Assembly (NCBI GenBank): GCA_963783385.1
Contig: CAWANJ010000009.1
Location: forward strand, 480,001-544,000
From: an uncultured Gemmatimonadales bacterium
GTDB lineage: Bacteria; Gemmatimonadota; Gemmatimonadetes; Palauibacterales; Palauibacteraceae
Direction of reading: 5' to 3'
Length of the DNA: 64,000 nt
Shown here: positions 9,104-27,682 of the stretch, piece by piece
How positions within the stretch are numbered: position 1 is the first letter of the stretch
Layout: every line of letters starts with the position of its first letter
The notes under the pieces: model-generated
Seen by the model: the letters and a program-made list of their open reading frames with translations, nothing else
Told to the model about the DNA's origin: nothing
The model's database searches: none
Position numbers and translations under genes: made by a program

Positions 9104-9178
9104 GGTGGGCGTAGCTCAGCTGGTTAGAGCGCCAGGTTGTGGCCCTGGAGGCCGCGGGTTCGAATCCCGTCGCTCACC
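9104..9178 (+). tRNA. tRNA-His (GTG), G-1 encoded, CCA not encoded
   Basis: acceptor GTGGGCG/CGCTCAC, D arm GCTCAGCTGGTTAGAGC, anticodon arm CCAGG-TTGTGGC-CCTGG, T loop GGTTCGAATCC. Confidence 0.97.
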
Positions 9179-9180
9179 CT
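9137..9180 (+). repeat. attL core (3' part of tRNA-His)
   Basis: 44-bp TTGTGGCCCTGG...CGCTCACCCT identical to 27639-27682. Confidence 0.96.
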
Positions 9181-9184
9181 CTCT

Positions 9185-9207
9185 AAGTCACTGATTGTCA
9201 GTGACTT
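9185..9207. terminator. perfect hairpin just after tRNA-His/attL (terminator or accessory-factor site)
   Basis: AAGTCACTGA-TTG-TCAGTGACTT, 10-bp stem. Confidence 0.55.
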
Positions 9208-9214
9208 CCGGTTC

Positions 9215-9263
9215 ACCGTCACCAGGCCGCCCAGCCTCACGGTGACAGTGGCGGTGACAAGCC
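9215..9263. promoter_or_regulatory. putative integrase arm-type sites (left)
   Basis: CGGTGACA twice at 12-bp period (9240, 9252) plus an inverted partial copy at 9215-9224; same motif near attR. Confidence 0.6.
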
Positions 9264-9284
9264 GCGACCGGGAGAGGGGCTCGG

Positions 9285-10533
9285 ATGCTTGCCGAACGGC
9301 TCTACGAGATCGTCCAGGATACGCTCGCCTACGCCCGAAGATCTGACCTCGCCGACGCCCTATCGGCGCTCGCCAAGGCCACCAGGGATCGAGAGCAAGG
9401 TAGGGCCACCCCAGCAACACCGCCCCCGAATCAGCCTCCCCAGCCGAACCAGAGACGCCAAGAACCGACCGGCCCCAGTGCGGAGCAGCGCTTCCGATCG
9501 GCCCTCGACCACCTGAGCATCGCCCTCACCTCATCGGACGGGATCAATCGACTGGCCCCCTCCGATGCGAATATCCTAAAAGGCGATCGGCGGATGGGAG
9601 TTGACCGGAAAGCGACTCTGGGACCGAATCGAAAGGCGCTTGAACGTCCCGCTTTCGATGAGTCCTCGGCCTCCGACTTACTGGATCGCCTATCTGCCGG
9701 AGGTTCCAGAACAGTTCGTCGAAGCTCTGGAGGGTCTGGCGGAGAGCTTTCGAGTGCTGGGCCTGCATGGCATGGGTCTGCCGGGTGAAGCCCGCAGAGA
9801 TCGGCGTCATTTTCCCGGCCGGAGTTGAGGAGCGAAGCTTCAAGACAACCTCACGATCGGAGCTCGCTGACTTCAACTTAGCCCTCAGGGTGGTGCAGGA
9901 CGGCGGCTGGAAGACCACCCGGCGACATTCGAGTACGATCCCTGTCGAGTGGGAGCTGGTATCCTCGCGCTTCTGGGGAAGCTGGCGGTGGCTCGGGTGT
10001 TTTTGGCCTGCATCGAGGGGGGCGCTTGGCATTATCGATAAGGGGATGAGCATCGGTGCTCGCTATCGTGAACTCCGTGAGGCGGGCGCCCCGAAGAAAT
10101 CTCAGACGACCATATCAACCAGATGGTCGCCGTGGCTATGCGTCAGGAACGGGAGAGAGTTAAGGATGAGATCCTCGAGAGCGACGACGATCCGCGTCCT
10201 CGCGACCACGAAGTAGCGAACCACCTCGGCAGGGCGTTGGATTACTTCGTCCGCAAGATTAACGAAGGGGTGGTCTTTGAGGTCCGGGCTCTGCCACCGG
10301 CCGCCGGCGACGAGGGACTGGATGAGGAGTCCCGAGAATCCCTCGACCGGCTGTACAGTTTCGGCGGCGTAATGGCGGAGGACCATCCACGCCGTCACCT
10401 CCCGCATGAGGCCCTTCGGCTCGCTCGAGGCTATGAAGAAGACGAGCAAGAGGAAGGCGAGGCGGCCGGCGAGCGGGCCGATTACGGAGGACAGCCAAAT
10501 AGCGACGATGCCGCCGCCAAGAACCGGGACTAG
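9285..10533 (+). pseudogene. ~400-aa hypothetical cargo protein split by several frameshifts
   Basis: protein-like segments continue across frames (MLAERLYEIV..., QFVEALEGLAESF..., AEIGVIFP..., IEGALGIIDKG..., LDYFVRKINEGVVFEVRALPP); more AT-rich than the host. Confidence 0.65.
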
Positions 10534-10534
10534 G

Positions 10535-11803
10535 CTAGGGGGCGATCAGGGCGGTGAGCCGCTCGCCGAGCTCCTTCCGGTAGTCCTCCACCCGGAACGC
10601 AACCTCCGGCCGCCGGTCGGGCCGCTGGGCCAGGTGCCCGTAACGCTCCTCGATCAGCCGCGTGGAGCTGTGCCCGAGCTCCCGGGCGACGGTGTAGAGG
10701 CTCACCGGCACCGGGACCTCCTGCGACTCCCCATCCGGACCCGGCCGCTTCACGACGTCGTAGGTCTGGATCCGCGCGGCCGTGTACGTGTGCCGGAGCA
10801 TGTGCCAGCGGATCCGCCCCTCGAGAAACCCCGCCCGCTTTCCGATCGTGTCGAGCTGCCGGCGGCACTCGCGGAGCATCTTCCCTGAGCGCGGGGAGGG
10901 AAAGAGGAGGCCGTCCTTCGGGCCGCTCCCCATGAACACGTAGGCCTGGAGGATCTCCCGGAGCTGGGGCCAGAGGGGGACCGTCCGCCTCGACCGCTTC
11001 GTCTTGAGCCCCCTGAATGCGTTCGGACGCACCCTGAGGAGCCCGGCGTCGAAGGAGAGGTCCTCCACCGTCAGGCCGAGGAGCTCGGACTTCCTGAGGC
11101 CCGTCAGAAGCGCCGTGGCGATCATCTCGTACATGGCCTCGTTCCCCCGGGCGGTGTCCGGCGGTGAGTAGAGCCGGGCCGACTCGAGGAGGAGGGCCGC
11201 CTCGGCCGGCTCCAGCCAGTCCTCTCGCTCCTTCCGCTCCGGCACCGGCTTGTCCAGGAGCGCCGCTACGGGGTTGTAGCCCGGAGGGACGACCTCCTCC
11301 TGCTGGGCGCGGCGGTAGAGGTTGGAGAGGCTGTTCAGGTGGTCCCGAACGGTCTTCTCGGAGAGCGTGCCGCCACGGCCGTTGTCGGTCTTCCGGAGGA
11401 CCGCGATCCACTGGCGCATGTCGGACGGCCGGATCGTCGTGAGCTCGCGGTCCTTCCCGAAGAACTCCACGGCCCGGGCGAGCTGATTCTCGACCGCCAC
11501 GAGCCACTTCGGGGACACGCCGGCCCGCTTCTTCGCCTTCATGTGCTCGGAGCCGAAGGCCTCGAGGCCCTCCACGCGCCGCACGCCCGTCACGACGCGC
11601 CGCTGGCGAAGCTCCTGGAGCTCCTGGAGGCGCTTGGCCGCCAGGGACTCGGCGATCGCCGGGTCCGTAGTGGCCCGCTTCGCCCCGTCGGGGATCAGCG
11701 CCTCCCGGCCGCCGCCCTCGGCGGCGTAGTCCCGAAAGTCCGCGTAGTAGCGGTCCTCGCCGCCGCGATTCCGCGTGTAGAGCCTGCCTCCGTTCTTTGC
11801 CAT
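10535..11803 (-). CDS. tyrosine recombinase / phage integrase
   Basis: TGLRKSEL (R), KT (K), HMLRHTY (HxxR), LGHS and RYGH (Y) catalytic residues; GAGGAG RBS. Confidence 0.95.
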   Translation of the reverse strand: MAKNGGRLYTRNRGGEDRYYADFRDYAAEGGGREALIPDGAKRATTDPAIAESLAAKRLQELQELRQRRVVTGVRRVEGLEAFGSEHMKAKKRAGVSPKWLVAVENQLARAVEFFGKDRELTTIRPSDMRQWIAVLRKTDNGRGGTLSEKTVRDHLNSLSNLYRRAQQEEVVPPGYNPVAALLDKPVPERKEREDWLEPAEAALLLESARLYSPPDTARGNEAMYEMIATALLTGLRKSELLGLTVEDLSFDAGLLRVRPNAFRGLKTKRSRRTVPLWPQLREILQAYVFMGSGPKDGLLFPSPRSGKMLRECRRQLDTIGKRAGFLEGRIRWHMLRHTYTAARIQTYDVVKRPGPDGESQEVPVPVSLYTVARELGHSSTRLIEERYGHLAQRPDRRPEVAFRVEDYRKELGERLTALIAP

Positions 11804-11812: not shown

Positions 11813-12115
11813 TCAGCCGCTTCCGTCCCGCCGTGCCGGGTCGAGCTCTGTCCCGTGCAGGTTGGCTCGCTGCCACTCGGCCAGGAGCTCCTGCCATGCG
11901 TCCTCGACCCAAGTGCCGTCGGGGACCTCCATGACCTCCGCCGCGCCGCCGGTAGGGTCGGGCGTCACGACCAGCCGACAGGCCGGATGTCCGGTCGTGC
12001 TGTGAATCTCCTTCTGTGGGCCGCCCAAGCGCGCGAAGATCATGTAGGTCCCGCAGCACGGACACCGGACACGCACCAGGCGATCGTGAGGTCCGGCGGG
12101 GCCGGACCCTGTCAC
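11813..12115 (-). CDS. small hypothetical protein with CxxC (RCPCCG)
   Basis: GTG overlaps the upstream stop; ends just before the integrase RBS. Confidence 0.55.
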   Translation of the reverse strand: MTGSGPAGPHDRLVRVRCPCCGTYMIFARLGGPQKEIHSTTGHPACRLVVTPDPTGGAAEVMEVPDGTWVEDAWQELLAEWQRANLHGTELDPARRDGSG

Positions 12116-12451: not shown

Positions 12452-12787
12452 ATGCCGCCGGCAACACTGGATCGACCCGAGACGAAGGCGCCCGACACCG
12501 TCGCCGATCGCACCTGCCTGGGGATCCCGATCCTCTCGGAGACGTTCAGGGAGACCTACTACGACGCCATCAAGGCGGACCCGGGGAGGGTCGGAAAGCT
12601 GGAGGCGATCGCCGATATGATGCAGGAGCTCCTCTGGAGCGAGTCGGAGGGACTGGAGTCCGGCCATCCGGCCATGCGTCCATTCGAGAACGCGATCGAC
12701 GCCACCAGCGAACTCAAGGACGCGCTCACCAGGGCTCGCGCGGCGCTCCTGGATCTCCAGGGGCCGGACGCGAACGCACAGAGCTAG
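12452..12787 (+). CDS. hypothetical helical protein
   Basis: AGGAG RBS, host-like codon usage, followed by a hairpin. Confidence 0.7.
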   Translation: MPPATLDRPETKAPDTVADRTCLGIPILSETFRETYYDAIKADPGRVGKLEAIADMMQELLWSESEGLESGHPAMRPFENAIDATSELKDALTRARAALLDLQGPDANAQS

Positions 12788-13642: not shown

Positions 13643-14031
13643 ATGACGCCGGCGTTCCCGAGCCGCCGCTTCGTGGACCTGCTCCGCGAGCTCTACTGGC
13701 TGGGCGACGCGCCGCCGCCGGCCGCGCCGCCTGGCTGGAACGAGGCCGCCGAGCTTCAGGATCTCCGGGCCGCCTGGCGGAACCTTGGTCGAGATGCCGA
13801 GCGCGTCGAGCGCGCCATGCGCGGCTTCCGCGCCCTCGCCGATCGCGGAGAGCTGCCGGGCACCGCGGCGGGCGAGGCCTTCACGGGCGCGCTCCTCAAG
13901 CGCCTGCGGGGCGAAGGCTTCTGGGAACGGGCGGAGCGGGCCGGCCAGGTGTTCGAGCCGGGGCCGCCAGCGAAGGAGCGGCGCCCCCGGACCTGGTCGG
14001 CACGCTCGCCGGTCGGATCGGCCATGGCTAG
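13643..14031 (+). CDS. hypothetical replication-region protein (3' frameshift, or fused to DnaB)
   Basis: MTPAFPSRRFVDLLRELYW...; an alternative frame ends LAGRIGHG* overlapping the DnaB ATG. Confidence 0.45.
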
Positions 14032-15396
14032 CGCGGTCGCCGCGGTCCCGAACTCGGAGCTCGCGGAGCGGGCCGTCCTCGGCGCGTTGATCCTCGATCC
14101 GGAGCGCGCGGACGATCTTCTCGCCGAACTCCGGCCGGAGGACTTCCTCGATCCCGGGCGCCGGGCCGTGTTCGAGGCCTCAAGGTCGCTCTACCGGGAT
14201 GCGCGGACGATCTCGGCGGAGCTCCTCCACGAGCGACTCCTGGCCGACGGCGAACTCGAGCGCGCCGGGGGCGCGAGGGGGCTCGCTGGCCTCCTCGAGA
14301 CCGACGTCGCCGGAAAGCAGGCGCTCGAGCTCGCACGCGAGCTGAGGGGCCACCGGATCCGCCGCGAGCTGCTCCGGGCCGCTGGCGACGTCGCAGCCAT
14401 GGCCCGCCGCCTGGACGTGCCGGCCGGCGAGCTGGCGGGCCGCGCCGAGTCGCGGATCCTCGAAGCTGCCGGCGCCGACGTGCACCAGGACAATGGCCTC
14501 GCGATCGGGGCCGCGGCGCTCCAGGCGCTCGAGAGGATCGAGCGCGTCCGGGAGAAGGGCGGTGCGATGGGGCTTCCCACCGGCCTCGGGGCTCGACCGG
14601 CTCACGGGCGGGCTCCGGGCGGGCCAGCTCTGGATCGGCGGCGGGGACACGAGCTCGGGGAAGACCTCGCTCGCCGTCGGCATCGCCCGGCACCTCGCGC
14701 TCGCCGAGGCCCAGCGGGTCGTGTTCTACAGCTTCGAGATGGGCGGGACGGACATCGGGGAGCGCGTCCTCCTCCAGGAGGCCGGGATCGGACTCGCCCG
14801 GGCGAAGCGCCGGGACCTCGGGCAGGCCGACATCGAAAGCTCCACAGGGCGGCCGCGCGGCTGCAGCGCGCCCGCTCAAGATCGTTCCCGCCTCCGACCT
14901 GAGCGCCACGGAGCTTCGTGCCCGCGCCCGCCGCGAGGTGCGCCGGGGCGGCGCCCGGCTCCTCGTTGTCGACTACCTCCAGCTCGTCCCGGGAGGCGGC
15001 GGCGAGACCCGCGAGCAGGAGGTCTCGGGCGTCACGCGGGAGCTCGGCCGCATGGCGCGCGAGCTCGAGGTCCCCGTCCTCGCCCTGGCCCAGATCAACC
15101 GCTCGCACGCCTTCCGCTCGGGCGACCACCGGCCCCAGCTCTCCGATCTCCGCGAGTCGGGAGCGATCGAGCAGAACGCCGACGTCGTCCTGTTCGTCTA
15201 CCGGCCGGGCCGCTACCGGGACCCCACCGAGCCCGAATACCGGAAGGAGCGGGAGGAGGCGGAACTCATCGTCGCCAAGCAGCGCCAGGGACCGCTCGGG
15301 ACGGTGCGCTGCCGCTTCCGCGGTGAGCTCTACCGCTTCGAGGAGCTCCTGCCGGACGAGCAGGCTTCCTACAGCCGCGGAAGGGTTCGCACATGA
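14024..15396 (+). pseudogene. DnaB-like replicative helicase, frameshifted near ~14590 and ~14850
   Basis: PNSELAERAVLGALIL, GLPTG/LDRLTGGL, GKTS, FSFEM-like YSFEM, LVVDYLQL, QINR, RPQLSDLRESGAIEQNADVV, IVAKQRQGP. Confidence 0.9.
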
Positions 15397-15910: not shown

Positions 15911-16945
15911 GTGTCCGGACCGACTGATGCCTACGCCCGGCTCGCCGACGCCGCCGTCCGCGAGGGCCGCCTCGAGGAGCTCGACCAGCTTGTGCGGGCG
16001 ATCGACCCCGCCTTGGCCCGCCGACTCCAGTCAGCGCTCACCAACGGCCTCAAGGAGCGCAATGCCGAGGAAGCCCGCGGCGACGACGGCCCCCAGATCG
16101 TCCGCCTGGCCGAGATCCTCGCGCGCCCCGATCTCCTCGAGCCGCCGCGGACCGTGGTCCCCCGGCTCGCCTGGTCGGGCCGCGTCACGCTCCTGGCCGG
16201 CCGCGAGAAGGTCGGCAAGTCCACCCTCGCCGCCGGCGCCGAGGCGGCGGTCTCGGCGGGCGCCGGGCTCTTCGGGGCCTCGACGCCCTGCGGGCCGGTC
16301 CTTCTCCTCGCGCTCGAGGAGCACATGGGCGACGTGGCCCGCCGGCTCCAGGCCTTCCGCGCCGACCCCGAGCGCGTCTGGGTCCTCGACCGGATCGAGG
16401 AGCCGCTGGCCGACCTCGCCGGCGCCGTCCAACACGTCGGCCCGGCCCTGGTCGTGGTGGACACCCTCGCGGCCTTCACCGCGCCGCTCGGCCTCGAGCC
16501 GGGCAGCTCGACCGACTGGACCCCGGTCATGGCCGGGATCGCCCGGGTGGCCCGCGACACGGAGACGGCGATCGTGCTTCTCCACCACGCCTCGAAGGCG
16601 GACGGCTCCTACCGGGACTCCACCGCGATCGGCGCGGGGGTCGACGTGATCCTCGAAGCGAAGCGCGGCACCGAGGAGACGGTGCAGGTGAAGGCCCGCG
16701 GCCGGTTCCCCGTCGAGGACTTCACGGTCCGGCTGCTGGGGAGCCCGGCACGGCCCCGGCTCGCCCTGGCCGCCGGGGAGCTCGGCCTCGACGCCCGCGT
16801 GCTGTTCTACGTCGACCGGAACCCGGGGGCCTCGAAGCGGGCGGTCTGCGGGGGGGTCGAGGGCAGGGCGCAGGACATTCTCAACACCGTCGATCAGCTG
16901 CTGGGGCGAGGCCTCGTGGAGGACCGCGGCGACGGACGCGGCTGA
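15911..16945 (+). CDS. AAA_25 / RepA-like helicase
   Basis: LLAGREKVGKST Walker A, LALEE, LVVVDTL Walker B, LLHHASK...RDSTAIGAGVD; C-terminal winged-helix-like segment. Confidence 0.85.
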   Translation: MSGPTDAYARLADAAVREGRLEELDQLVRAIDPALARRLQSALTNGLKERNAEEARGDDGPQIVRLAEILARPDLLEPPRTVVPRLAWSGRVTLLAGREKVGKSTLAAGAEAAVSAGAGLFGASTPCGPVLLLALEEHMGDVARRLQAFRADPERVWVLDRIEEPLADLAGAVQHVGPALVVVDTLAAFTAPLGLEPGSSTDWTPVMAGIARVARDTETAIVLLHHASKADGSYRDSTAIGAGVDVILEAKRGTEETVQVKARGRFPVEDFTVRLLGSPARPRLALAAGELGLDARVLFYVDRNPGASKRAVCGGVEGRAQDILNTVDQLLGRGLVEDRGDGRG

Positions 16946-16974
16946 GCGCTGCACTCGACCGCTCAAAGCACAGG

Positions 16975-17089
16975 CGGAAACGGGGCGGAAGCACCCGGAA
17001 ACGGTTCCGGAAACGCTAGCACGGGCAGGGGAGGGGAGAGCGTTTCCCGAGGGGGGCACACCCCTGAAAGGGGTGCCCCCTCGGAAACG
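16975..17089. repeat. putative replication origin: GGAAACG iterons and long inverted repeat
   Basis: GGAAACG about 5 times in both orientations; CGTTTCCCGAGGGGGGCACACCCCT-GAA-AGGGGTGCCCCCTCGGAAACG at 17041-17089. Confidence 0.6.
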
Positions 17090-17228: not shown

Positions 17229-17252
17229 CTGTCACCGCAGCTGTCACCGCAG
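17229..17252 (-). repeat. tandem 12-bp repeat with the arm-site core CGGTGACA
   Basis: CTGTCACCGCAG twice. Confidence 0.7.
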
Positions 17253-18134: not shown

Positions 18135-19708
18135 CGCTCGCCACCGACCTCCGGCGGCTGCGGGAGGACGTCGGCGAGCTCCTCGCCCGGCACGATCGGG
18201 CGCAGGACATCTCCGAGTTCGAGGCCTACGCCGAGGACCCGATCGGCTTCGTCCGCGACGTGCTCGGCGACACCGACCCCGGCCCCTGGTGGCGGCAGGT
18301 GGAGATCGCCGAGGCTGTCCGGGATCACCCCCTGGTCGCGGTGCGCTCGAACAACTCGGCCGGCAAGGACTGGCTCGCGGCGCGTCTGGCGCTGTGGTGG
18401 GTCTACGCCCGCGGCGGGCTCGCCCTCGTCACCGGCCCCACTGAGCGTCAGGTCGTCGAGGTGGTCATGGGGCAGGTGGCCCGCGCCTTCCGCCGGGCGA
18501 GCTCGCTCCCCGGCGACCTGTACCGCTCGGCGCTCCGGGTCGGCGAGACGGAGGAGGCCGGGATCCTGGCCTTCACGTCGACCGAGGCCTCGAGGCTGAC
18601 GGGGTTCCATGCCGGGCGCGTGTTCTGTGTGCTCACCGAGGCGCAGGCGGTCGAGGATTTCGCCTGGGAGGGGCTCCTGGCCTGCGCGACGGGACCGGAG
18701 GACCGGCTCCTGGCGGTCGGCAACCCGGTGGCCCCCGACGGGCGGTTCTACCGGGCCTCCCGGGCCGGGACGTGGAAGGCGATCCGGGTCTCCGCGAAGG
18801 AGCACCCGAACGTCGTCGAGGGCCGGATGGTGATCCCCGGCGGCGTGTCCCGGGCCTTCGTGGAGCGGATCGCCTCGGAGTACGGGGCGTCGAGCGGCGT
18901 CTACAGGTCCCGCGTCCTCGGCGAGTTCCCCGACCAGGGAGAGGACGCGCTCTGCGCGCTCGAGTGGGTCGTCTCCGCGGCCGAGCGCTGGCAGGACGAG
19001 GAAGAGCACGAGGACCGCCGGCCCCGGGGCCTGCCGATCGTGGCGATCGACCCGGCGCGGTTCGGGCCGGACCAGACCGTCGCAGCCGTCATGCGCGGGA
19101 GCCGCGTCGTCCGGATCCTCGCCTGGCGGGGCGCCTCGACCATGGAGTCCGTCGGCCGGGTCGCGGAGCTGCTCCGCGAGGAGGGCATCCGGCCGAAGCC
19201 CAAGGCCCAGCGCTCGGCGCCCGGCGGCTTCGACGCCTACGGCCGGCCCACGAAGTTCGCGCTGCCCGCGGCGCCCCCGGAAGAGACCGGCCGGATCGTG
19301 GTGGACGAGATCGGCGTCGGGGGCGGCATCGTGGACCGGCTCCGGGAGCGGGGCTTCGAGGTCACGAGCTTCAACGGCGGCGGCCGGCCGCGGGGAAAGG
19401 GCCGGGAGCGGCACCTGAACCTTCGGGCGCAGGGCTACTGGACGCTCCGCCGCGCGCTCGAGCGGGGTGAGATCTCGCTCCCCCCGGACGACGACCTCCG
19501 CCAGGAGCTCGTGTCCATGCGCTGGGGGCCGACCTCCTCCGGCCAGATCCAGATCGAAGCGAAGACCGAACTCAGGGCGCGGCTCGGGCGGAGCCCGGAC
19601 AAGGCCGACGCCGTCTCCATGGCCGTGCTCGAGTGGGCGCGGCTCCGGGCCAGGGCCGCGCGGGACCCGATCGCGCCGAGCCTATCGTTCACTGACACCA
19701 GCATGTGA
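18131..19708 (+). CDS. terminase large subunit
   Basis: DPIGFVRDVLG, VAVRS..GKD Walker A, GNP, RVLGEFP, IDPARFGPDQTV, VVDEIGVGGGIVDRL, GRSPDKADA. Confidence 0.92.
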   Translation: MTLATDLRRLREDVGELLARHDRAQDISEFEAYAEDPIGFVRDVLGDTDPGPWWRQVEIAEAVRDHPLVAVRSNNSAGKDWLAARLALWWVYARGGLALVTGPTERQVVEVVMGQVARAFRRASSLPGDLYRSALRVGETEEAGILAFTSTEASRLTGFHAGRVFCVLTEAQAVEDFAWEGLLACATGPEDRLLAVGNPVAPDGRFYRASRAGTWKAIRVSAKEHPNVVEGRMVIPGGVSRAFVERIASEYGASSGVYRSRVLGEFPDQGEDALCALEWVVSAAERWQDEEEHEDRRPRGLPIVAIDPARFGPDQTVAAVMRGSRVVRILAWRGASTMESVGRVAELLREEGIRPKPKAQRSAPGGFDAYGRPTKFALPAAPPEETGRIVVDEIGVGGGIVDRLRERGFEVTSFNGGGRPRGKGRERHLNLRAQGYWTLRRALERGEISLPPDDDLRQELVSMRWGPTSSGQIQIEAKTELRARLGRSPDKADAVSMAVLEWARLRARAARDPIAPSLSFTDTSM

Positions 19709-19715: not shown

Positions 19716-20396
19716 ATGACCGCCGTACTCGCCGCATCGATCGAAGACGTCGAGGGCCGCTGCGCCGAGCTCCAGGGGCGCCGGGACGGGCTCCGCGAAG
19801 AGCTCGCCGGCGCGCGGAAGGACGTCGCGGCCGCCCGGGAGGCGCGGGCCGCCGGGACGGGCTCGACCGAGGCCCTCGCCGGGGCGCACAGCCGCGCCGA
19901 GGCGCTCGCCGCCGCGCTCGGGGAAGCGGAGGAGCAGCTGACCGCGGCCCATGCCGAGCTCGCCGACCTCCGGCGGGAATCGGGCCAGGGGGCCAGCCGC
20001 CGCCGCCTCGCCGAGCTGGCCGGCCAGGCGGAGACGCTCTTCGAGGAGTGGTCGGAGGCCTACCGGGCCTTCGGGGCGGCCCTCTCCCGGCTTCCGCGGC
20101 GGATCCTCGACCTCGAGGCGGAGCTCGCGGACCTCCAGCGGGAGTTCACCGAGCGGGCGGAGGCGCTGTGGCCGGGATTCCGCCGGGGCGCGGCCGGAAG
20201 CGTGGACCTCGAGGGCCTCGAGCTCGGGCCGCTCGCCGGCTACCGCGAGCCCGGGATGAACCTCGCCCGGCCGTGGGTCCGCGGCGACACCTCGGAGCTC
20301 GGGCGGCTCGCCCGCCGGCCCGAGCGGCCGGACCTCGGCGCCGTGGACAAGCCGGCGCAGGAGCTCATCGCGATCGAGCGCGAGCGGCGGGCGTAG
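19716..20396 (+). CDS. coiled-coil hypothetical protein
   Basis: GAGGG RBS; heptad-rich sequence dominated by A, E, L and R. Confidence 0.7.
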   Translation: MTAVLAASIEDVEGRCAELQGRRDGLREELAGARKDVAAAREARAAGTGSTEALAGAHSRAEALAAALGEAEEQLTAAHAELADLRRESGQGASRRRLAELAGQAETLFEEWSEAYRAFGAALSRLPRRILDLEAELADLQREFTERAEALWPGFRRGAAGSVDLEGLELGPLAGYREPGMNLARPWVRGDTSELGRLARRPERPDLGAVDKPAQELIAIERERRA

Positions 20397-21109: not shown

Positions 21110-21291
21110 ATGGGGGACCCAAGGGCCGGCCGGGGGGAGTGTGAGGCCTGCGGCGAGGAGCTCGGACGCCGCGGCGGCCGCGTCTGCGAGCTCTGCAGGG
21201 TCAAGGGCCGCTCTGCGAGGAGTGCTGGGTCGAGGACGGCCACCAGGCCCACGCCGACCAGGCGCTCGACCTGTCGGGAGACCATCAATGA
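21110..21291 (+). CDS. small Cys-rich zinc-finger protein, apparent frameshift
   Basis: CEAC...CELC then CEEC....H in a second frame; stop overlaps the next ATG. Confidence 0.45.
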
Positions 21292-22082
21292 GCACGCGGC
21301 GGCTGCTCTTCCTCGACCTCGAGACGACGGGGCACGGGGGAGCCGGATCCGGACCGCGACTGGATCGTGGAGTTCGCGTTCCAGCGCCTTGACCCGGAGC
21401 TCGGGCGGGCTCGAGCGGTGGGCGGAGCGGGTGAACCCCGGCGAGCCGATCCCGCGGACGGACCGAGGTGCACGGGATCTCTGACGCTGACGTCGCCGGC
21501 GCGCCTCCCTTCGCGGCCTTCGCGCCTGGGGTCCAGGGCCTGGTCGAGGGCTCGCTCCTCGTGGGCTACGGGAGCCGGCGTTACGACGTCCCGATCCTCG
21601 ACCGGGAGCTCCGCGCTGCGGACGAAGCCGGGCTCGAGCGGGACGCTTCGGGCGCGTTCATCGTCCACCCGGAGATCGACCTCTACCTCGCGTGGCAGCT
21701 CCACGAGCCGCGCGACCTGGCGACGGCGGCCCGGCGCTTCGCCGGCCGGGAGCTGGGGAACGACGCACATGGCGCCGAAGCGGACGCGGGCGTGCTCCGC
21801 GAGGTGCTCCGCGGCATGACCGAGAGCTTCGGTCTCCCCGGAGCGGACCGGCCCTCGGAGCTGGCCGCGGCTTGCCTCCAGCCCGGCGCCATGGACCGCG
21901 CCGGCTGCTTCCGCCGGCGCGAGGACGGTGTGGTCGTGTTCGACTTCTCGAAGAACCGCGGCAGGCCCGTCCGGGAGGAGCCGGGCATGCTCGAATGGAT
22001 GCTCAGGAACGACTTCCCGGCCGAGACCCGGCTCCTCGCGGATCGGCTTCTACGGGACGCTACTGGCGGCGGGGAGGACTGA
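21288..22082 (+). pseudogene. DEDDh 3'-5' exonuclease (DnaQ-like), frameshifted
   Basis: FLDLETTG, HGISDADV, GY.SRRYDVPIL, AHGAEADA, F.KNRG.PV...WML. Confidence 0.85.
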
Positions 22083-22085
22083 GCC

Positions 22086-22616
22086 ATGGCTGCGGACGAG
22101 GGCGGCGTGCGGTACGTGGACCTCTCGAGGCCCTGGCTCGGCCGCTTCTCCGTCATGGTGCTCGAGCCGCTGGTCGAGGCGGCCGCGCGCATCGTCCGCG
22201 ACAAGATCATCGAGGTCATGGAGGCGTCCACCCCCTCGGGCAAGCGCTACCCATCCCGTCCACCATCGCGCCCCGCAAGCGCTACAACCCGGAGACGGGC
22301 CAGTGGGAGGAGCTCCCCGGGCAAGTTCTACACGGCCTCCGCGCCGGACGAGCCCCCCGCGATCCGCACCGGCGGCTACCGGGACGCCTGGCTGGCCTCG
22401 GGCGCCTTCGAGGCGCGAGACGGTCATGGCGTGATGGCCGTCGTCTACAACTCGATCTACGTGGGGAAGGGCCGCGTCCCGCTCTGGGACATCCTCCAGC
22501 GGGGGCGGAAGGACGGCACGCTCCAGCCCCGGCCACACATCGACAAGGCGCTCGAGCTCGCGCGGCCCGAGATCGAGGCCCTGATCCGCGGCTTCTCCGG
22601 GCGCGGGGGCCTGTGA
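22086..22616 (+). CDS. HK97 gp10-like (neck/tail-completion) protein
   Basis: SGKRY...TASAPDEPPAIRTG and LQRG...LQPRPHIDKA motifs. Confidence 0.65.
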   Translation: MAADEGGVRYVDLSRPWLGRFSVMVLEPLVEAAARIVRDKIIEVMEASTPSGKRYPSRPPSRPASATTRRRASGRSSPGKFYTASAPDEPPAIRTGGYRDAWLASGAFEARDGHGVMAVVYNSIYVGKGRVPLWDILQRGRKDGTLQPRPHIDKALELARPEIEALIRGFSGRGGL

Positions 22617-22951
22617 GCCGCCGGAACGGCCGGCCGGCTGAGGCGGCCGTCACGGCCCGCGAGGCCCGAGGGGGCACAAAGACCGGCCGGAGCCCGCCCC
22701 GGACGACTCAATGCGTGCGGACGCACTTTCCGGCGATTCGGGAGGGGGCGGCGCGCACTGCGAGTGGTGCGGCAACCGATGGAGCCAAAACGCCGTGGCA
22801 GCGGTTCGACACGACGCGCTGCAGGAGGGAGGCCCACCGGGCGGCGCGAGGCGAGAAGATTGAGACCGCGGTTCGCGAGGCGCTGGACCGCGCGCGGCAG
22901 GACATCATGGACGCGCTCAGGGAAGCGCTCGAGGACGCGGGGCTCCGCTGA
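22613..22951 (+). CDS. small zinc-finger-like protein, apparent frameshifts
   Basis: CEWCGN / PKTPWQRFDTTRCRREAHR followed by an amphipathic helix. Confidence 0.4.
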   Translation: MSRRNGRPAEAAVTAREARGGTKTGRSPPRTTQCVRTHFPAIREGAARTASGAATDGAKTPWQRFDTTRCRREAHRAARGEKIETAVREALDRARQDIMDALREALEDAGLR

Positions 22952-22983: not shown

Positions 22984-25900
22984 ATGCCGAACGAAAGCGG
23001 TGCACCGCCGGTCGGCGAAGCGGCGGTCGAGTTCTCGCCGAGCACGGGGCAACTCGAGGCGGACATCAACACGAAGGTTCGCCAGGCGTCGGAGGCTGGC
23101 GGGAAGAGGGCGGGCAAGGCTTTCAGTCGGGGCTTCCGGGACACCTCGAAGCCACCGGGCAGCAGGCGGCCGACGCGATCGTGGCTGACGTCAAGCGGCG
23201 CTTCGACGAGCGCTGGCCGAGGTCCGCCACGCGTTCGCCGCCGGCCTCATCAACCGCCAGGAGTTCGAGAAGGCGGGCCGCACGGCCGCCGAGGACTTCA
23301 ACAAGGCGCTCCTGAACTCCATCCGCCGCCTCGAGGAGCGGGACAGATCACGCCGGCTGTCTTTCGGCAGCTGTCCTCTCAGATCAAGCTCGAGGGCGTC
23401 CGGGCCGGGGGACAAACGGGAGCGGGATCCAGCAGGGCCTCGGCGGCCTCACCAAGTGGCTCCGGACGGGCTTCTATGCCGGCACGGCGGGCGCGCTCCT
23501 CTACGTGGCCAGCCGCATCAAGAGCTTCTTCGCCGGCGTGGCGCGCGACGTCGAGAACACGCTGAACCTCGGCGGCCTCCAGGCCCGCCGCCAGTCCCTC
23601 GAGAGCCTCGCCGGCGCGCAGGGCCTCGACCCCGCCCGGCTCCTGGGGAGCTCCGGAAGGGGGCGCGCGGCACGCGTCCGACTTCGAGCTCATGGACCGC
23701 GCCAACAACGCCCTCCAGGCCGGCCTCAAGGGCTCGGCGGACCAGTGGGGCGAGATGGCGACGGCGGCCCGCCGGCTCGGTCAGTCGGTCGGAATCGACG
23801 CCGCGACGGCGTTCGAGCGCATGACGAACGCCATCGTCCATAACCGGCCGATCATCGCCTCGACGCTCGGCCTCGTGGTGAACTGGAAGCAGGCCTACGA
23901 CGATGCGGCCGCCGCCCAGGGGCGGACGGCCAACAGCCTGAGCGCCACCGAGAAGCAGCAGATCCGGCTCTACTCGACGCTCGCGGTGGCCCGGAAGCGG
24001 GTACAGGACCTCGGCGCGGACCAGCTGAACGCCGCCCAGCGCGTGGAGCAGCTCCGGAGCGCTTGGGACAATGCCAAGAACGCTATCGCGCAGGCCATCG
24101 CCACCAACCCGGGCGTCGTATCGTTCCTCGACTCCATCGCCCGGGGCGCCGAGAACGCGTCTGCGCCAATGGAGGTCCTGGTGACGAAGATTCAGGCCGC
24201 CGTGGACACCGCGCTCCAGCTCGGCAAGGGGCTCTTCCAGGGCGGCATCGCCGGCTTCCTCGCGGCCTCGGCGAGCGGTCCAGGCTACCGCGAGAACCTC
24301 CAGCGCCGTCAGCAGCAGATGGCCGTGGAGAACATCGCTACGCGAGTGACACGAACGCCCTCCTCAAGCAGCGCAACGAGCTGGAGCAGGAGGCCGTGAG
24401 CTGGCAGCGCTTCCGGGTCGACGGCGAGGTGAAGGAGGAGGACGCGATCCGGAAGGTGAAGGATCTCCACGAGCAGATCCTCGCCATCAACCAGCGCATC
24501 GCGCAGCTCCGCGCTCAGGGGGACGTCCCCGGCGGCGATCCCACCAAGATCAACCTCGCCGCCCAGGCCGCCACGGCCATGAACGACGCGCTCAAGGAGA
24601 CGGCCGGGCTCCTCGGTCAGATCGAGGGCGAGGCGGCCACCAGTACACCGGGCAGGGCCTCATCGCGCGCTTCTTCCAGCGCGCCTCCGGCCCCTCCCCG
24701 GTCGGCCCCGGCGTGTCCGGGTTCTCCCAGGGCGCCGCCGGACTCCAGGCGGCCGAGGACCTGCGCGCGAAGCTGACCGACCTTCACCACTTCATGGACA
24801 TGCTCTCGAAGGCCGAGGGCACGGCCGGCGAGAAGTCGCTGGCCCTGAACGAGCACCTGAAGGAGCTCGGCCTCACCTGGGACCAGTTCCCCGACACGCT
24901 GAAGCTCCTCGTGAACGGTCTGATCGGCGCGGGGAACGCCGCCCTCATGCTTGGCCAGGGCTCGGATCAGGCCGAACGGAGCGCCTCGAAGCTGATGGAC
25001 CCTGCGGGCATCGAACGGGCGGCCCGCGGCATCCTCTCGCTCGCCGATCGATGGGCGTCCTCGACCACAAGACGCGCCGCGCGCTGCAGGGCATGGTCGA
25101 CATCGCGGGAGGCATCAGGACCTTGCTCCAGGGGGTAAGCTCGGAAATCTCCCCTCGGTGGCCGGCGGCCATTCCAGGGCGTTTCCGGCATCATCGGCAC
25201 GGTCAGCGGCCTGTTCGGCAAGAGTCGAGAAGGACAAGGAGCGCGACCGGCTCCTCGCCGAGAACAATCAGCGGCTCACCGACCTCAGGAACGAGCTCGG
25301 CCGCCAGCTCCAGTTCCTGACCGGGATCTCCGGCGACCAGTTCTCCGCGCTCCTCAAGGTGACTCAGCAGGCGGCGGCCGACCCGAACAGCTTCCTCTCG
25401 GGCTACCACTGGGCCGACCTCAAGAAACAGCTGGAGGCGGCCGGCCTCGGCCTCTCCGACCTCCACGACGCCGCCCAGAAGCTCGGGATCACCTGGGACG
25501 ACGGCCACCTGGCCGAGAGCTTCACGGCGCTCGCCAGGGCGCTCCGCGAGCTCGACCTCAAGAAGGCGCTCGGCACCTTTCAGGGGCAGATGGGGCTCCT
25601 CCAGCACGAGTTCTCGATCTTCAACGTGACCGACCCCGTGCAGAAGCTGGAGAAGTTCCGCCAGCTCCTGCTCAGCTTCACCAGCCTGCCGGGCGGCCTC
25701 CAGCAGCAGCTCTCCGGCCTCGACCTCACCACGGCGGCCGGCCAGACCCAGCTGCAGCAGATCCTCGAGCAGCTGTTCTCGGCCTTCGCCTCCGGCCGTA
25801 TCTCCATCGCGCAGCTCCAGGGCGCCCAGGGCGGCCTGTCGGCCTCCGACTTCCAGGACCTCCTCGACCAGATGGCCCAGCTCCTCCAGCACGCGCAGGG

Positions 25901-26316
25901 CGCCTCGGGGAATGTCGGCGGCCTGCAGGTGTTCAGCGGGATCAGCGAGCTCCAGGCGAACCGCCTCCTCTCGGGCGACGATACCAAGATCGCGCTCCTC
26001 TCGAAGCTCTGAGATCAACGCGGCCGGCTTCCGCGGGCTCGGCGTCGACATCCCGAGCCCGGGCGACCTCGCGCCCCTGGCCCGGCCTGGGGGCGCGGCC
26101 TCCACGACCGTCACCTTCCAGCCCGGCTCGATCGAGATCGGCCCGATCGACCTCGCCGGCGTCTCCGACCCGAAGGCGGCCGGCCAGGCGCTCGGCGACG
26201 CCTTCGTCCGGGAGATCGACCGGCGGCTTACGCGAAGCGGGTCTCCGCCTCGCGCGTCCAGGGGAGGGTCTCTGAGCGGGCTCGTGGTGGACGGGGAGGG
26301 ACTGCCATATGTCTAG
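22984..26316 (+). pseudogene. phage tail tape-measure-like protein (~1,100 codons), many frameshifts
   Basis: N-terminal VGEAAVEF, DFELMDRANNALQAG, YDDAAAAQGRTANSLSATEKQQ; A/Q/L-rich helical; C-terminal beta strand plus GDAFVREIDRRL; 3' end approximate. Confidence 0.78.
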
Positions 26317-26564
26317 TAGGCGGCCTGGACCGAGGCGCGTGGGCGCTCCTCGCCTCGGATACGATCCGGACTAGCGCCGACGGCACCCGTCAGGCGATCC
26401 TCGTCTCCTTTTCGGGCGGCGCGCTCACGCCCTGGAGCGTCCGGGCCTACGGCTCGGCCTCGGCCACCAATGGCGTGACCTACGTCACCTTCGGCTCGCC
26501 GTCGGTCACGGCCATCACCTCCTCGACGGCGAAGGTGCTCCTCCGGACCGCCGAGAGGGCGTAG
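26309..26564 (+). pseudogene. beta-rich gene fragment (possible tail-protein remnant)
   Basis: WALLASDTIRTSADGTRQAILVSFSGG...VTYVTFGSPSVTAITSSTAKVLLRTAERA*; no in-frame start at its 5' end. Confidence 0.35.
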
Positions 26565-26683
26565 GGCAGGCGGGCCAAACGGCCAGCCGCTCAGGTGGGC
26601 CATACCGCAGGGTAGGGGTAGGGCTCAACGGAGGGTCAACGGGCAGGCGGAGAGCCCATGGAGACCCCTCCTGGCCCTTCGGA

Positions 26684-27058
26684 CTACCAGCCGTCTGAGC
26701 CGACCATCCAGCCCTGACCTGTAAGCGAGTCGAGGAGCACCTGTCCCGTCTTCCTGGGCCTCCCAGCGCGGCCGGGCAGGTTGTACTTCCAGAATGCGAC
26801 GCCCGCGTCCACCTCGACCGAGTCCGGAGGTCCGAGATGGGCGAGAAGTTGGCATGCGCTCCAGTCACTCTCCGGCGCATAGTGCTGGCCCTTCGGCAGG
26901 TCCCTGTGCAGCCGGCCGTAGGCCTCCAGGACCGCGTTGTAACTGCAGCCCCACCGCGCGGCGACCTCCTGGGTGATGAGCCTCGGTCGCTGGGCGCAGC
27001 TCGCGGACAGCACCACCACCACCGCGAACAGCGCGGGTCGCAGAGCCTTGGTCGTCAT
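26684..27058 (-). CDS. putative lipoprotein
   Basis: MTTKALRPALFAVVVVLSAS-C lipobox; GGGAGG RBS; LG.PD..WKY resembles SmpA/OmlA-type domains. Confidence 0.7.
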   Translation of the reverse strand: MTTKALRPALFAVVVVLSASCAQRPRLITQEVAARWGCSYNAVLEAYGRLHRDLPKGQHYAPESDWSACQLLAHLGPPDSVEVDAGVAFWKYNLPGRAGRPRKTGQVLLDSLTGQGWMVGSDGW

Positions 27059-27116
27059 GTGCAGCCTCCCGTCGAGTCCATGCGGCGCGCTGACTCCCGC
27101 GGTGCCCGGAGCGGTT

Positions 27117-27383
27117 TCAATGCCCAGCCGCCCCCATTGCTCCGAGGAACAGGCTTCCGAAGGCGAGCCAGACAAGGAACCAGAAGATCGCGAAGAGGAT
27201 GCCGGTGGCGAGCGTGCCGAGGAGCACGCCGCCGGCAATTCTGGCGGCGGACGGTCCTGTTGCCAGGCGCAGTGCCTCGCGCCCCTCGCGGGAGTCGCTC
27301 GGGTTCGGAGCGCCGCAGCTCGGACAGTAGGGTGCGGAGCTGGCGATGTTGACCTGGCATGTGTGGCAGGCAACGAGAGGCAC
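27117..27383 (-). CDS. zinc-ribbon membrane protein
   Basis: CHTC...CPSCGAPN followed by hydrophobic helices; GGAGG RBS. Confidence 0.75.
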   Translation of the reverse strand: MPLVACHTCQVNIASSAPYCPSCGAPNPSDSREGREALRLATGPSAARIAGGVLLGTLATGILFAIFWFLVWLAFGSLFLGAMGAAGH

Positions 27384-27522
27384 GCGGACCTCCAGGTGAG
27401 GGTTCGGTCGGGGGCGCGCAGGCCTCGAATATCTCCCGGTGCGCCCGGCGCCGGCAACGCCGACCCCGCGAGCGCCCGCCTTGCAGGACAGACCTGGCCG
27501 CCCCCAGACTCCTCGGCGCAAG

Positions 27523-27552
27523 CGGTGCCAGTAGCGGTGACAAACGGTGCCG
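27523..27552. promoter_or_regulatory. putative integrase arm-type sites (right)
   Basis: CGGTGCCAGTAG-CGGTGACAAA-CGGTGCCG, similar to 9240-9263. Confidence 0.6.
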
Positions 27553-27638
27553 ATTCTGGCCGACGCGGACCAACGAAGAGAAACCGAAACGCCGCGTGAA
27601 ATGTGGCTCCTGAGCGTTGACTGACGACCGGAACTAGC

Positions 27639-27682
27639 TTGTGGCCCTGGAGGCCGCGGGTTCGAATCCCGTCGCTCACCCT
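27639..27682 (+). repeat. attR core (displaced tRNA-His 3' fragment)
   Basis: identical 44 bp to 9137-9180. Confidence 0.96.

What the first reader, a model, noticed from the sequence alone, without database searches (positions are those of the whole stretch)
9137..27682. Capsid-less, portal-less integrated element with its own terminase and tape-measure gene: candidate new type of phage satellite
Seen: an 18.5-kb element with an intact 44-bp att pair. Gene order is int - HTH switch - helicases - ori - xis - terS - terL - small genes - gp10-like - tape measure. No recognisable portal, protease, major capsid, tail tube, baseplate, holin or endolysin. Known: PICIs usually carry at most TerS; cf-PICIs carry terminase plus portal and capsid and borrow tails; P4-like satellites carry no terminase. 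Inference: this element may supply its own packaging motor and tail-length/neck parts while taking heads and tubes from a helper phage, roughly the reverse of cf-PICIs. Unrelated genes directly follow terL where head genes would be, with tight spacing and no visible head-gene debris, which favours a designed layout over random deletion.
Basis: partly seen in the sequence, partly recalled or inferred. Interest (0 to 1): 0.82.

Follow-up and report, generated by a model that had tools for sequence, protein, structure and literature searches.

The report
Capsid-less satellite carrying its own terminase
An 18.5-kb mobile element inserted in a tRNA gene of a Gemmatimonadota bacterium carries a DNA-packaging motor, a neck protein and a tail tape-measure gene but no head genes, and its motor gene belongs to a whole lineage of small head-less islands, so it is probably a new kind of phage parasite.

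Summary
A 46/47-nt repeat at the 3' end of tRNA-His bounds an 18,502-bp insert, and three of three same-genus genomes have the empty site. The insert encodes a tyrosine integrase, a DnaB-like helicase, an AAA_25 helicase, an HTH_17 protein, a TerS-like protein, an intact TerL, a DnaQ-like exonuclease, an HK97-gp10-like neck protein (fold-confirmed) and a tape-measure-like gene of about 1,100 aa. No portal, capsid, protease, tube, baseplate or lysis family was found. An almost identical copy on an 18,588-bp contig has DnaB intact. Host DNA shows none, so the breaks are local consensus errors or decay of this copy. The closest TerL relatives (38-69% identity) sit in small integrase-bearing islands with only TerS and TerL in common and no portal. 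They form one strongly supported clade, and outgroup TerLs are followed by portals. Best reading (0.55): a phage satellite that brings its own terminase. No helper, particle or excision was shown. A satellite tape measure already has one precedent (EPIPs).

The parts
9105..9179 (+). tRNA-His(GTG), integration target; its 3' end is attL
   Evidence: ARAGORN; Rfam tRNA 67.7 bits
9134..9180 (.). attL copy of the 47-nt direct repeat
   Evidence: family D4; junction matches the empty site of G050
9544..10449 (-). two ORFs of unknown function (169 and 115 aa) between attL and int; weak coding signal
   Evidence: no family hit; not in the protein collection under these starts
10535..11803 (-). tyrosine integrase, 422 aa
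   Evidence: PF00589 3e-15, phrog_1 2.9e-45
11813..12043 (-). small ORF (76 aa) upstream of int, unknown
   Evidence: no family hit
12452..12787 (+). 111-aa ORF, unknown; the identical protein is on a second contig
   Evidence: no family hit
14024..15396 (+). DnaB-like replicative helicase, read in three frames in this copy (breaks near 14588, 14838, 14867); intact 458-aa form on the sibling contig
   Evidence: PF00772 and PF03796 on the pieces; sibling P0012 PF03796 1.4e-76; 455/458 identical, 0 substitutions, 3 frameshifts
15911..16945 (+). AAA_25 (RepA/primase-associated type) helicase, 344 aa
   Evidence: PF13481 1.2e-22; phrog_906 1e-15
16946..17346 (.). spacer with nested inverted repeats (17002-17087) and a 12-nt tandem pair (17229-17252); candidate ori, pac site or regulatory site, untested
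17347..17715 (+). HTH_17 (excisionase/AlpA-type) DNA-binding protein, 122 aa
   Evidence: PF12728 3.2e-13; phrog_66 1.1e-7
17589..18134 (+). TerS-like protein: CCCH zinc motif plus helical hairpin; always just upstream of terL in the clade
   Evidence: tblastn hits in 24 loci; cluster of 29 loci; alignment A3. No family or fold support
18131..19708 (+). large terminase subunit TerL, 525 aa, intact
   Evidence: phrog_2 3.9e-26; about 30% identity to annotated Streptomyces phage terminases; ATPase and nuclease motif columns invariant in A1
19716..20396 (+). 226-aa coiled-coil protein where a portal would be expected; function unknown
   Evidence: weak coiled-coil family hits; Atlas neighbours are unnamed phage proteins of about 200 aa
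20416..21094 (+). two small ORFs (127 and 102 aa), unknown; possibly neck parts, by position only
   Evidence: strong codon signal; no family hit; 127-aa protein has no relatives
21288..22082 (+). DnaQ-like 3'-5' exonuclease; the N-terminal ExoI motif is in other frames in this copy. The 21110-21484 'ORF' is not a gene
   Evidence: phrog_192 8e-15, PF00929; frames; frameshift at 21458
22086..22616 (+). HK97-gp10-like neck protein, 176 aa; a compensated pair of frame breaks at 22254 and 22316 in this copy
22715..22951 (+). 78-aa ORF just upstream of the tape measure, unknown
   Evidence: no significant family hit
22984..26316 (+). tape-measure-like gene of about 1,100 aa, broken by at least 11 frameshifts in this copy
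   Evidence: sibling P0008 (693 aa) and P0002 (306 aa) map here; phrog_1535 3.8e-6 on one piece; Atlas TMP families 0.94-0.96; tblastn to annotated tape measures of T5-like phages
26684..27058 (-). 124-aa ORF, unknown; also present on the sibling contig
27636..27682 (.). attR copy of the 47-nt repeat

Best explanation
This is an integrative phage satellite of a Gemmatimonadota host. It sits in tRNA-His and moves by a tyrosine integrase, probably with the HTH_17 protein as excisionase or activator. It replicates with its own DnaB-like helicase, AAA_25 helicase and DnaQ-like exonuclease. On infection by a still unknown helper siphovirus, its TerS-like protein would recognise the satellite's own pac/cos site, perhaps in the repeat-rich spacer at 16946-17346. 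Its own TerL would dock on the helper's portal and fill helper procapsids with satellite DNA. Its gp10-like neck protein and tape measure would take part in finishing the neck and setting tail length on helper-made tubes and tips.

Shown: the boundaries, the empty sites, the gene identities (int, DnaB, AAA_25, HTH_17, TerL, exonuclease, neck fold, tape-measure likeness), the lack of recognisable head genes, and the portal-less TerL lineage.

Inferred: helper dependence, TerS function, docking on a foreign portal, any effect on tails, and that the frame breaks of this copy are consensus errors rather than decay.
For: Mobility:
- Precise insertion with a 46/47-nt att pair.
- Three of three same-genus genomes have the empty site.
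- No near-identical element in the other 113 family genomes.

Gene content:
- TerL is full length with invariant motif columns.
- No head, tube, baseplate or lysis family among 41 ORFs. No ORF after terL exceeds 226 aa apart from the tape measure.
- Tape measure: (weak), (487 phage records; the features listed under the matches are mostly tape measure protein).

Lineage:
- terS-like and terL are the only genes shared across clade loci (terL in 44 loci, terS-like in 29).
- PHROG portal, capsid or tail hits: 0 of 23 downstream ORFs in 11 clade loci, 0 of 78 ORFs in 14 clade loci, 0 of 61 ORFs of the complete 15,435-bp G066 element.
- By contrast, 10 of 13 outgroup loci have a portal after terL.
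- Clade loci show satellite-like layouts: L077 int-repressor-D5 primase-terS-terL; L066 int-helicase-terS-terL.
- In the TerL tree, a clade of 26 rows (SH-aLRT 100) holds the window, 10 other 'no portal' rows, 15 uninformative short rows and 0 'portal or big ORF' rows. The other side holds all 28 such rows.

Intactness elsewhere:
- The sibling contig has intact DnaB (P0012, 458 aa).
- DnaB differs from the window by 3 frameshifts and 0 substitutions.
- Host genes show 0 net frameshifts over 24.5 kb compared with G050.
Against: - No helper phage, excised circle, empty-site read or particle was seen. The only read data were low-depth contigs that settle nothing.
- The own genome (92% complete) has no PF05065, PF04860 or PF10145 match, so no resident helper.
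- This copy has at least 17 frame breaks. The exonuclease N-terminus also looks cut short on the sibling (P0017 lacks the first 41 profile positions). The sibling's tape measure is still called as two overlapping ORFs. Some decay is therefore possible.
- A replication-type exonuclease gene between terL and the neck gene, and the lack of anything after the tape measure, also fit a deleted prophage.
- TerS identity has no family or fold support.
- The three ORFs right after terL were not folded.
- 'No portal' rests on PHROGs, BLAST and ORF size. In most clade loci only 0.8-3 kb downstream of terL was available.
- Tape measure and gp10-like genes were not found in other clade loci.
Confidence: 0.55

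Rival explanations
1. Decaying remnant of an ordinary temperate siphovirus. Internal deletions removed the portal-to-capsid block, the tube and everything after the tape measure. The remaining genes are rotting, and the element no longer moves.
For: - At least 17 frame breaks in DnaB, exonuclease, neck gene and tape measure, while 24.5 kb of host DNA shows none.
- Large stretches with a poor coding signal.
- An exonuclease gene sits inside the late region.
- The tape measure is the last late gene, with nothing after it.
Against: - The sibling copy has intact DnaB.
- DnaB shows 3 indels and 0 substitutions, and the identical TerL protein is on two contigs. That pattern fits consensus errors better than neutral decay.
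- The insertion is absent from three of three congeners, and the att copies differ at 1 of 47 positions.
- The whole TerL clade lacks a portal, which independent deletions would not give.
Confidence: 0.2
2. An integrative island whose TerS-TerL pair does not serve its own transfer. Instead it acts as a packaging decoy or interference module against infecting phages (a defence island), with the tape measure and neck gene as inert passengers.
For: - Only terS-like and terL are conserved in the clade, while the neighbouring genes vary like cargo.
- No helper is known.
- Satellites and prophages are known to interfere with terminases (titles and abstracts listed).
Against: The nuclease and ATPase motif columns of TerL are invariant. 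Clade loci carry int, repressor and primase/helicase in satellite order. A defence role would not exclude satellite transfer.
Confidence: 0.1
3. A small autonomous virus or virus-like agent whose capsid and portal are too divergent to recognise.
For: Several ORFs have no relatives or family. The 226-aa, 127-aa and 102-aa proteins were not folded.
Against: Between terL and the tape measure no open frame with a coding signal exceeds 226 aa. Portals found next to outgroup TerLs are 390-655 aa. The coiled-coil signal of the 226-aa protein does not fit an HK97 fold.
Confidence: 0.05

Closest known systems
Capsid-forming PICIs (cf-PICIs)
   Same: Integrative satellite. It has its own TerS and TerL, which the SatelliteFinder paper names as the mark that separates cfPICI from PICI (PMC10085698, passages). 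It has its own head-tail joining protein.
   Different: No major capsid protein, portal, protease or HNH. It carries a tape measure, which cf-PICIs borrow together with the tail. The dependence is on heads as well as on most of the tail.
Classical PICIs / SaPIs
   Same: int, then a regulator, then a replication module, then a packaging gene; tRNA-type integration; small size.
   Different: [quoted passage not shown] Here TerL, a neck protein and a tape measure are present, and no capsid-size redirection gene was recognised. At 18.5 kb it is about twice the median PICI (9.5 kb, same passages).
EPIPs of Mycolicibacterium (preprint PMC12822802, whole text read)
   Same: A small satellite that carries a tape measure plus head-to-tail adaptor/stopper genes and a TerS, and lacks tail and lysis genes.
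   Different: EPIPs are 11 kb and have a serine integrase and a scaffold. The text also lists a 'major capsid protein' among their genes while saying they lack capsid proteins. No TerL or replication helicases are listed. No sequence relation was tested here.
VEIMEs, marine virion-encapsidated integrative elements (PMC9618062, passages)
   Same: Environmental tRNA-type integrative satellites with integrase, primase/helicase, AlpA and sometimes TerS.
   Different: In the passages read, the large terminase is presumed to come from the helper. No TerL, neck or tape-measure genes are described there. Supplements could not be opened.
Temperate HK97-like siphovirus prophage
   Same: TerL, a gp10-like neck protein and a tape measure in the usual order; tyrosine integrase at a tRNA.
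   Different: Portal, protease, capsid, tube, distal tail and lysis genes are all missing, and the size is 18.5 kb.

Membership tests
PICI (as defined in PMC10085698) | integrase | tested here: met
   PF00589 3e-15, phrog_1 2.9e-45
PICI (as defined in PMC10085698) | regulator homologous to alpA, merR or stl next to int | tested here: inconclusive
   An HTH_17 protein exists (PF12728 3.2e-13), but it lies beside terS, not beside int. The ORFs near int have no family hit.
PICI (as defined in PMC10085698) | primase-replicase module | tested here: inconclusive
   DnaB-like and AAA_25 helicases are present. No primase domain was found. SatelliteFinder's own profiles were not available.
PICI (as defined in PMC10085698) | no phage structural genes other than capsid-morphogenesis and terS | tested here: not met
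   TerL, neck protein, tape measure
cf-PICI | large terminase gene | tested here: met
   phrog_2 3.9e-26
cf-PICI | major capsid protein, portal and head maturation protease | tested here: not met
   0 such families among 41 ORFs at E<=0.01; no tblastn hit with 10 portals; no sufficiently long coding frame
cf-PICI | head-tail adaptor and connector | tested here: inconclusive
   One gp10-like neck protein is confirmed by fold. The 127-aa and 102-aa ORFs are unassigned.
P4-like satellites | psu, delta, sid and alpha primase genes | tested here: inconclusive
   No such family appeared in Pfam or PHROGs. The only trace is an Atlas neighbour carrying PF07455 Psu at 0.89, with low recognition, for the 226-aa protein; a lead only.
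EPIP satellites | serine integrase, terS, adaptor, stopper, tape measure, about 11 kb | tested here: not met
   The integrase is a tyrosine recombinase and the size is 18.5 kb. A tape measure and a neck protein are shared in kind. No EPIP sequence was at hand to compare.
Tailed temperate phage (autonomous) | complete head, tail and lysis modules | tested here: not met
HK97 gp10-like neck proteins (PF04883) | profile match and fold | tested here: met
Tail tape measure proteins | long helical protein upstream of distal tail genes, matching TMP profiles | tested here: inconclusive
   For: phrog_1535 3.8e-6 on a 235-aa piece; Atlas TMP_2, TMP_3 and PhageMin_Tail clusters at 0.94-0.96; tblastn E 4e-5 to 1e-3 against annotated tape measures. 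Against: the 693-aa sibling protein hits no PHROG or Pfam family at E<=0.01, and no distal tail genes follow.

The most novel reading that the evidence does not exclude
A lineage of phage satellites, so far seen in Gemmatimonadota genomes and sediment and soil metagenomes, has kept a complete terminase (a zinc-finger TerS-like protein plus TerL) while owning no portal or capsid. Its motor must therefore work on the portal of an unrelated helper phage. This 'motor-bringing' parasitism is not covered by P4-like, PICI, cf-PICI or PLE satellites. The window's member goes further and also brings a neck protein and a tape measure of about 1,100 aa, so it could re-measure or re-fit the helper's tails for its own particles.
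Probability: 0.4. Interest if true: 0.82.

Novelty: new variant of a known kind. Interest (0 to 1): 0.7.

Why it matters
Satellites are sorted by what they steal. Described families either borrow the helper's TerL (P4, PICI, PLE) or bring a TerL together with their own portal and capsid (cf-PICI).

A stable lineage with TerS and TerL but no portal would mean a terminase can be matched to a foreign portal. That would blur the supposed co-evolution of motor and portal and give packaging specificity without capsid genes. It would also extend satellites to Gemmatimonadota; my one literature search for that pairing found nothing.

There is a practical point for prophage and satellite finders. TerL inside a small island should not be scored as a degraded prophage by default.

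The finding also shows a trap. Frame breaks confined to a mobile element in an otherwise clean long assembly can mimic pseudogenisation.

Tried and rejected
- Read evidence. Only three sediment runs hold small shares of the element (0.15, 0.11, 0.03), kept as short low-depth contigs about 98% alike. No contig gave a clean attB or attP joint. The listed 'joints' have 20-37-nt sides and look like cross-matches, so nothing can be said about excision. Two indels against the window (+C at 22249, +G at 24631) appear in contigs of two runs and agree with the sibling reading.
- An exact 40-mer of terL in IMG/VR gave 0 hits. TerL relatives in IMG/VR are only 29-31% identical.
- The genome-contig scan gave only 3 loci.
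- NCBIfam at E<=1 and Pfam at E<=1 on the unknown ORFs gave nothing usable.
- The profile of the neck family against PDB sequences gave nothing. Foldseek against PDB gave nothing at E<=0.001. VIA and BFVD then found the neck fold.
- I first read 22086-22616 plus the -1 frame behind it as a G/GT tail-chaperone pair. I rejected this after the fold search showed a gp10-like neck protein, and no slippery site lies at the ORF end.
- The ORF at 21110-21484 was rejected as a gene. It is the out-of-frame N-terminus of the exonuclease.
- A uniformly error-prone assembly was rejected as the cause of the frame breaks: 0 net frameshifts in host genes over 24.5 kb compared with G050.
- tblastn of the 226-aa protein, the neck protein and a 497-aa clade ORF against phages gave no match. 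A 346-aa clade ORF matched only unannotated records.
- Complex prediction (TerL with the TerS-like protein) was never accepted because the queue was full. No result.
- The careful tree search did not finish, so the quick IQ-TREE tree was used.
- Literature searches for a TerL-bearing capsid-less satellite found none. Supplements were closed, so gene tables of SatelliteFinder, VEIMEs and EPIPs could not be checked.

Full report
**What is in the sequence.**
The window is G000:C9:480001-544000 of a 3.54-Mb, 9-contig genome. Record titles of its relatives name Gemmatimonadota, and a flank protein's cluster-mates are named Candidatus Palauibacterales.

A 47-nt direct repeat, 46/47 identical, lies at 9134-9180 and 27636-27682, 18,502 nt apart. 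The left copy is the 3' end of tRNA-His, 9105-9179.

In same-genus genome G050 the tRNA side ends at C41:53567 and the window's right flank begins at 53568. At that junction 80/80 bases match the attL side and 71/80 match the right flank, while the element's first 80 bases match at only 23/80. G052 and G051 also have the two flanks adjacent.

No near-identical copy exists in the other 113 genomes of the family. Only the terL stretch and conserved dnaB/dnaQ-like segments match at the DNA level.

**Gene content.**
The DNA is 72% G+C, so I called genes by GC3 and a codon model. I scanned 41 candidate ORFs against Pfam and PHROGs at E<=0.01. The result, in order:
- attL
- two unknown minus-strand ORFs
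- tyrosine integrase, 10535-11803 (phrog_1 2.9e-45)
- small unknown ORFs
- DnaB-like helicase, 14024-15396
- AAA_25 helicase, 15911-16945 (1.2e-22)
- a 400-nt spacer with nested inverted repeats and a 12-nt tandem pair
- HTH_17 protein, 17347-17715 (3.2e-13)
- a TerS-like ORF, 17589-18134
- TerL, 18131-19708 (phrog_2 3.9e-26; about 30% identity to annotated Streptomyces phage terminases)
- a 226-aa coiled-coil protein
- ORFs of 127 and 102 aa
- a DnaQ-like exonuclease, 21288-22082 (phrog_192 8e-15)
- a 176-aa protein, 22086-22616
- a 78-aa ORF
- a long helical gene, 22984-26316
- minus-strand unknown ORFs
- attR

No portal, protease, capsid, tube, baseplate, holin or endolysin family appeared. 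Ten portals taken from outgroup loci gave no tblastn hit on the window. After terL, no frame with a coding signal exceeds 226 aa except the long helical gene.

**The neck protein and the tape measure.**
The sibling version (P0024) has 120 relatives at E<=0.001 among 1.84 billion representatives. Two of the 70 I aligned (out of those 120) hit PF04883 HK97-gp10_like.

The long gene is tape-measure-like, on weaker evidence:
- One 235-aa piece hits phrog_1535 at 3.8e-6.
- The 693-aa sibling protein P0008 gets Atlas neighbours carrying TMP_2, TMP_3 and PhageMin_Tail at 0.94-0.96.
- P0008 gives tblastn matches in 487 phage records, at E 4e-5 to 1e-3 and 28-30% identity over about 38% of its length. 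The features listed under the matches are mostly tape measure proteins of T5-like phages.
- Against this, P0008 hits no PHROG or Pfam family at E<=0.01.

**Frame breaks and the sibling copy.**
DnaB is read in three frames in the window. Look-ups in the protein collection showed that an 18,588-bp contig carries the same element:
- an intact 458-aa DnaB (P0012);
- a 344-aa AAA_25 protein, a 102-aa protein, the 176-aa neck protein and the 124-aa right-end protein;
- a 217-aa exonuclease;
- tape-measure ORFs of 693 and 306 aa.

The TerL, 226-aa, 127-aa, HTH_17 and 111-aa proteins each occur, identical, on two contigs, presumably including this one. No host-flank protein clusters with that contig. 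Its length is the att-to-att unit plus 86 bp. That fits a contig made of the element alone, either a circle or an assembly bubble, but I could not fetch it.

A frameshift-aware alignment of the sibling proteins to the window gives:
- DnaB: 455/458 identical, 0 substitutions, 3 frameshifts
- exonuclease: 1 frameshift, plus an ExoI motif stranded in other frames upstream
- neck gene: 2 compensating frameshifts
- tape measure: 9 + 2 frameshifts, with 33/693 and 5/306 substitutions

That makes at least 17 breaks, mostly single missing bases. In 24.5 kb of host DNA aligned to G050 at 94-95% identity, every gap inside a gene is compensated within 6 nt. The assembly is therefore not generally error-prone.

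Indels without substitutions in DnaB point to local consensus errors. An example would be low depth over an insertion carried by only part of the population. Real decay of this copy cannot be excluded. The exonuclease also looks N-terminally cut on the sibling, and the sibling's tape measure is still split.

TerL homologues at E<=1e-20 occur in 12 of 114 family genomes, counting the window's own. The closest full-length ones are 54-58% identical by tblastn; partial matches reach 64-69%.

In G066 the homologue lies in a complete island bounded by a 43-bp repeat at tRNA-Arg, 15,435 bp long. Its genes are a DNA-binding protein, terS-like, terL, cargo including a sulfatase-like gene, a repressor, an excisionase and an integrase. 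None of its 61 ORFs has a portal, capsid or tail hit in PHROGs. In G048 and G070 an integrase and a tRNA lie 5-10 kb downstream of terL.

A scan of metagenome contigs with a TerL alignment returned 161 relatives, of which 80 loci were kept. What follows terL splits by identity to the window's TerL:
- In 11 loci at 38% identity or more, 0 of 23 downstream plus-strand ORFs hit a portal.
- In 13 loci at 36% or less, 10 have a portal after terL. The exceptions are L094, L095 and L124.
- A wider scan of 78 ORFs from 14 clade loci at E<=1e-4 again found no structural family. It did find integrases, a repressor, a D5-type primase and a helicase, in the order int-repressor-primase-terS-terL (L077) and int-helicase-terS-terL (L066).

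All-against-all clustering shows that only terL (44 loci) and the terS-like gene (29 loci, the window included) are shared widely. Setting aside clusters that are antisense shadows of terL, the next are integrase (4 loci) and a small excisionase-like ORF (3 loci).

In the 12 clade loci with at least 1.5 kb downstream of terL, the largest plus-strand open frame starting within 2.5 kb is 146-382 codons, and none has a portal BLAST hit.

**TerL tree.**
I built a quick IQ-TREE tree of 75 TerL rows. Rows with HSPs under 400 aa or with stops were dropped beforehand, as listed, and five near-duplicates were also dropped. The tree places the window in a clade of 26 rows with SH-aLRT 100. That clade holds 11 'no portal' rows (the window included), 15 rows too short to judge, and none with a portal or an ORF of 400 codons or more. 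The other 48 rows include all 28 'portal or big ORF' rows, 17 short rows and 3 'no portal' rows.

Caveats:
- The root is at the midpoint.
- The label is a proxy. In L095 the 'big ORF' is a tape measure, not a portal.
- The careful tree search did not finish.

**How it most likely works.**
The simplest reading is a satellite. It integrates and excises with the integrase and the HTH_17 protein. It replicates with DnaB, the AAA_25 helicase and the exonuclease. It packages its own DNA with its own TerS-like protein and TerL into procapsids made by a helper, and it contributes a neck protein and a tape measure to particle completion. Only the gene identities and the lineage pattern are shown; every step that involves a helper is inferred.

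The own genome (92% complete) has no match to PF05065, PF04860 or PF10145, so a helper would be an infecting phage.

The TerS assignment rests on position and co-conservation. The family has a CCCH motif and a helical hairpin. Its model has no informative structural neighbour, and the complex prediction with TerL could not be run.

**Comparison with what is known.**
In the passages I read of the SatelliteFinder paper (PMC10085698):
- PICIs have an integrase, a regulator, a primase-replicase, a capsid-morphogenesis gene and terS.
- terL and head-tail adaptor/connector genes are what set cf-PICIs apart, and cf-PICIs also carry capsid genes.

The window element fails the cf-PICI test on capsid, portal and protease. 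It fails the PICI test by having TerL, a neck protein and a tape measure.

A satellite tape measure is no longer unheard of. The EPIP preprint (PMC12822802, whole text) describes 11-kb Mycolicibacterium satellites with a TerS, an adaptor, a stopper, a serine integrase, a scaffold and a tape measure. It states that tape measures were otherwise not known in satellites.

VEIME passages (PMC9618062) mention TerS and 'motor-like ATPases' and presume that the helper supplies TerL.

Six literature searches found no description of TerL-bearing, capsid-less satellites. Supplements were closed, so rare variants listed only there could have been missed.

**Verdict.**
The strongest new result is the portal-less TerS-TerL lineage of small integrative islands, not the single element. 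I rate it a new variant of a known kind (phage satellites), interest 0.70, and give the satellite reading a confidence of 0.55. The main rival is a decaying prophage remnant (0.20).

Noticed in passing
window 28005-29784: A GT4-family glycosyltransferase gene (28221-29501, lower G+C) sits between two 164-nt direct repeats (28005-28168 and 29621-29784, 99% alike). G050 has a single copy of the repeat and no insert. The insert splits a beta-CASP / RNase J-like gene, whose downstream part also carries a frameshift near 30972.
   Followed up: partly
window 31692-36788: A complete rRNA operon (16S, 23S, 5S) lies 4 kb downstream of attR. It explains the low-G+C, strongly G-skewed stretch.
   Followed up: yes
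G066:C39, L019:14944 to L020:14421: A complete 15,435-bp island at tRNA-Arg with a 43-bp att pair. It holds terS-like, terL, repressor, excisionase and integrase genes plus a sulfatase-like cargo gene, and no head genes.
   Followed up: partly
L095:7851-14431: A 20.5-kb metagenome contig has a TerL (32% identical to the window's), then a 350-aa ORF, a 553-aa tape measure with strong hits (phrog_991 1.9e-28) and an integrase, with no portal hit. This is a second, unrelated 'terL plus tape measure plus int' arrangement.
   Followed up: no
window 17589-18134 and 19 aligned loci (alignment A3): The protein always found upstream of this TerL clade has an invariant or near-invariant C-x9-C...C-x2-H motif followed by a long helical hairpin. 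No known TerS family or fold matched it.
   Followed up: partly
window 14024-26316: Frame breaks (at least 17, mostly single missing bases) are confined to the element, plus the already disrupted RNase J-like gene. 24.5 kb of host genes have none. DnaB has 3 breaks and 0 substitutions against the sibling copy.
   Followed up: partly
L026 (G108:C3) and L027 (G047:C46): Two further family genomes carry more distant TerL genes (32-34% identity) with no large ORF and no portal BLAST hit downstream. L027 is sister to the portal-less clade in the tree.
   Followed up: no
window 14940-15305 and 21425-21646: The element's DnaB C-terminal part and its exonuclease match chromosomal genes across the host family at about 70% DNA identity, including the host's own dnaB at C9:638363-638628.
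   Followed up: no
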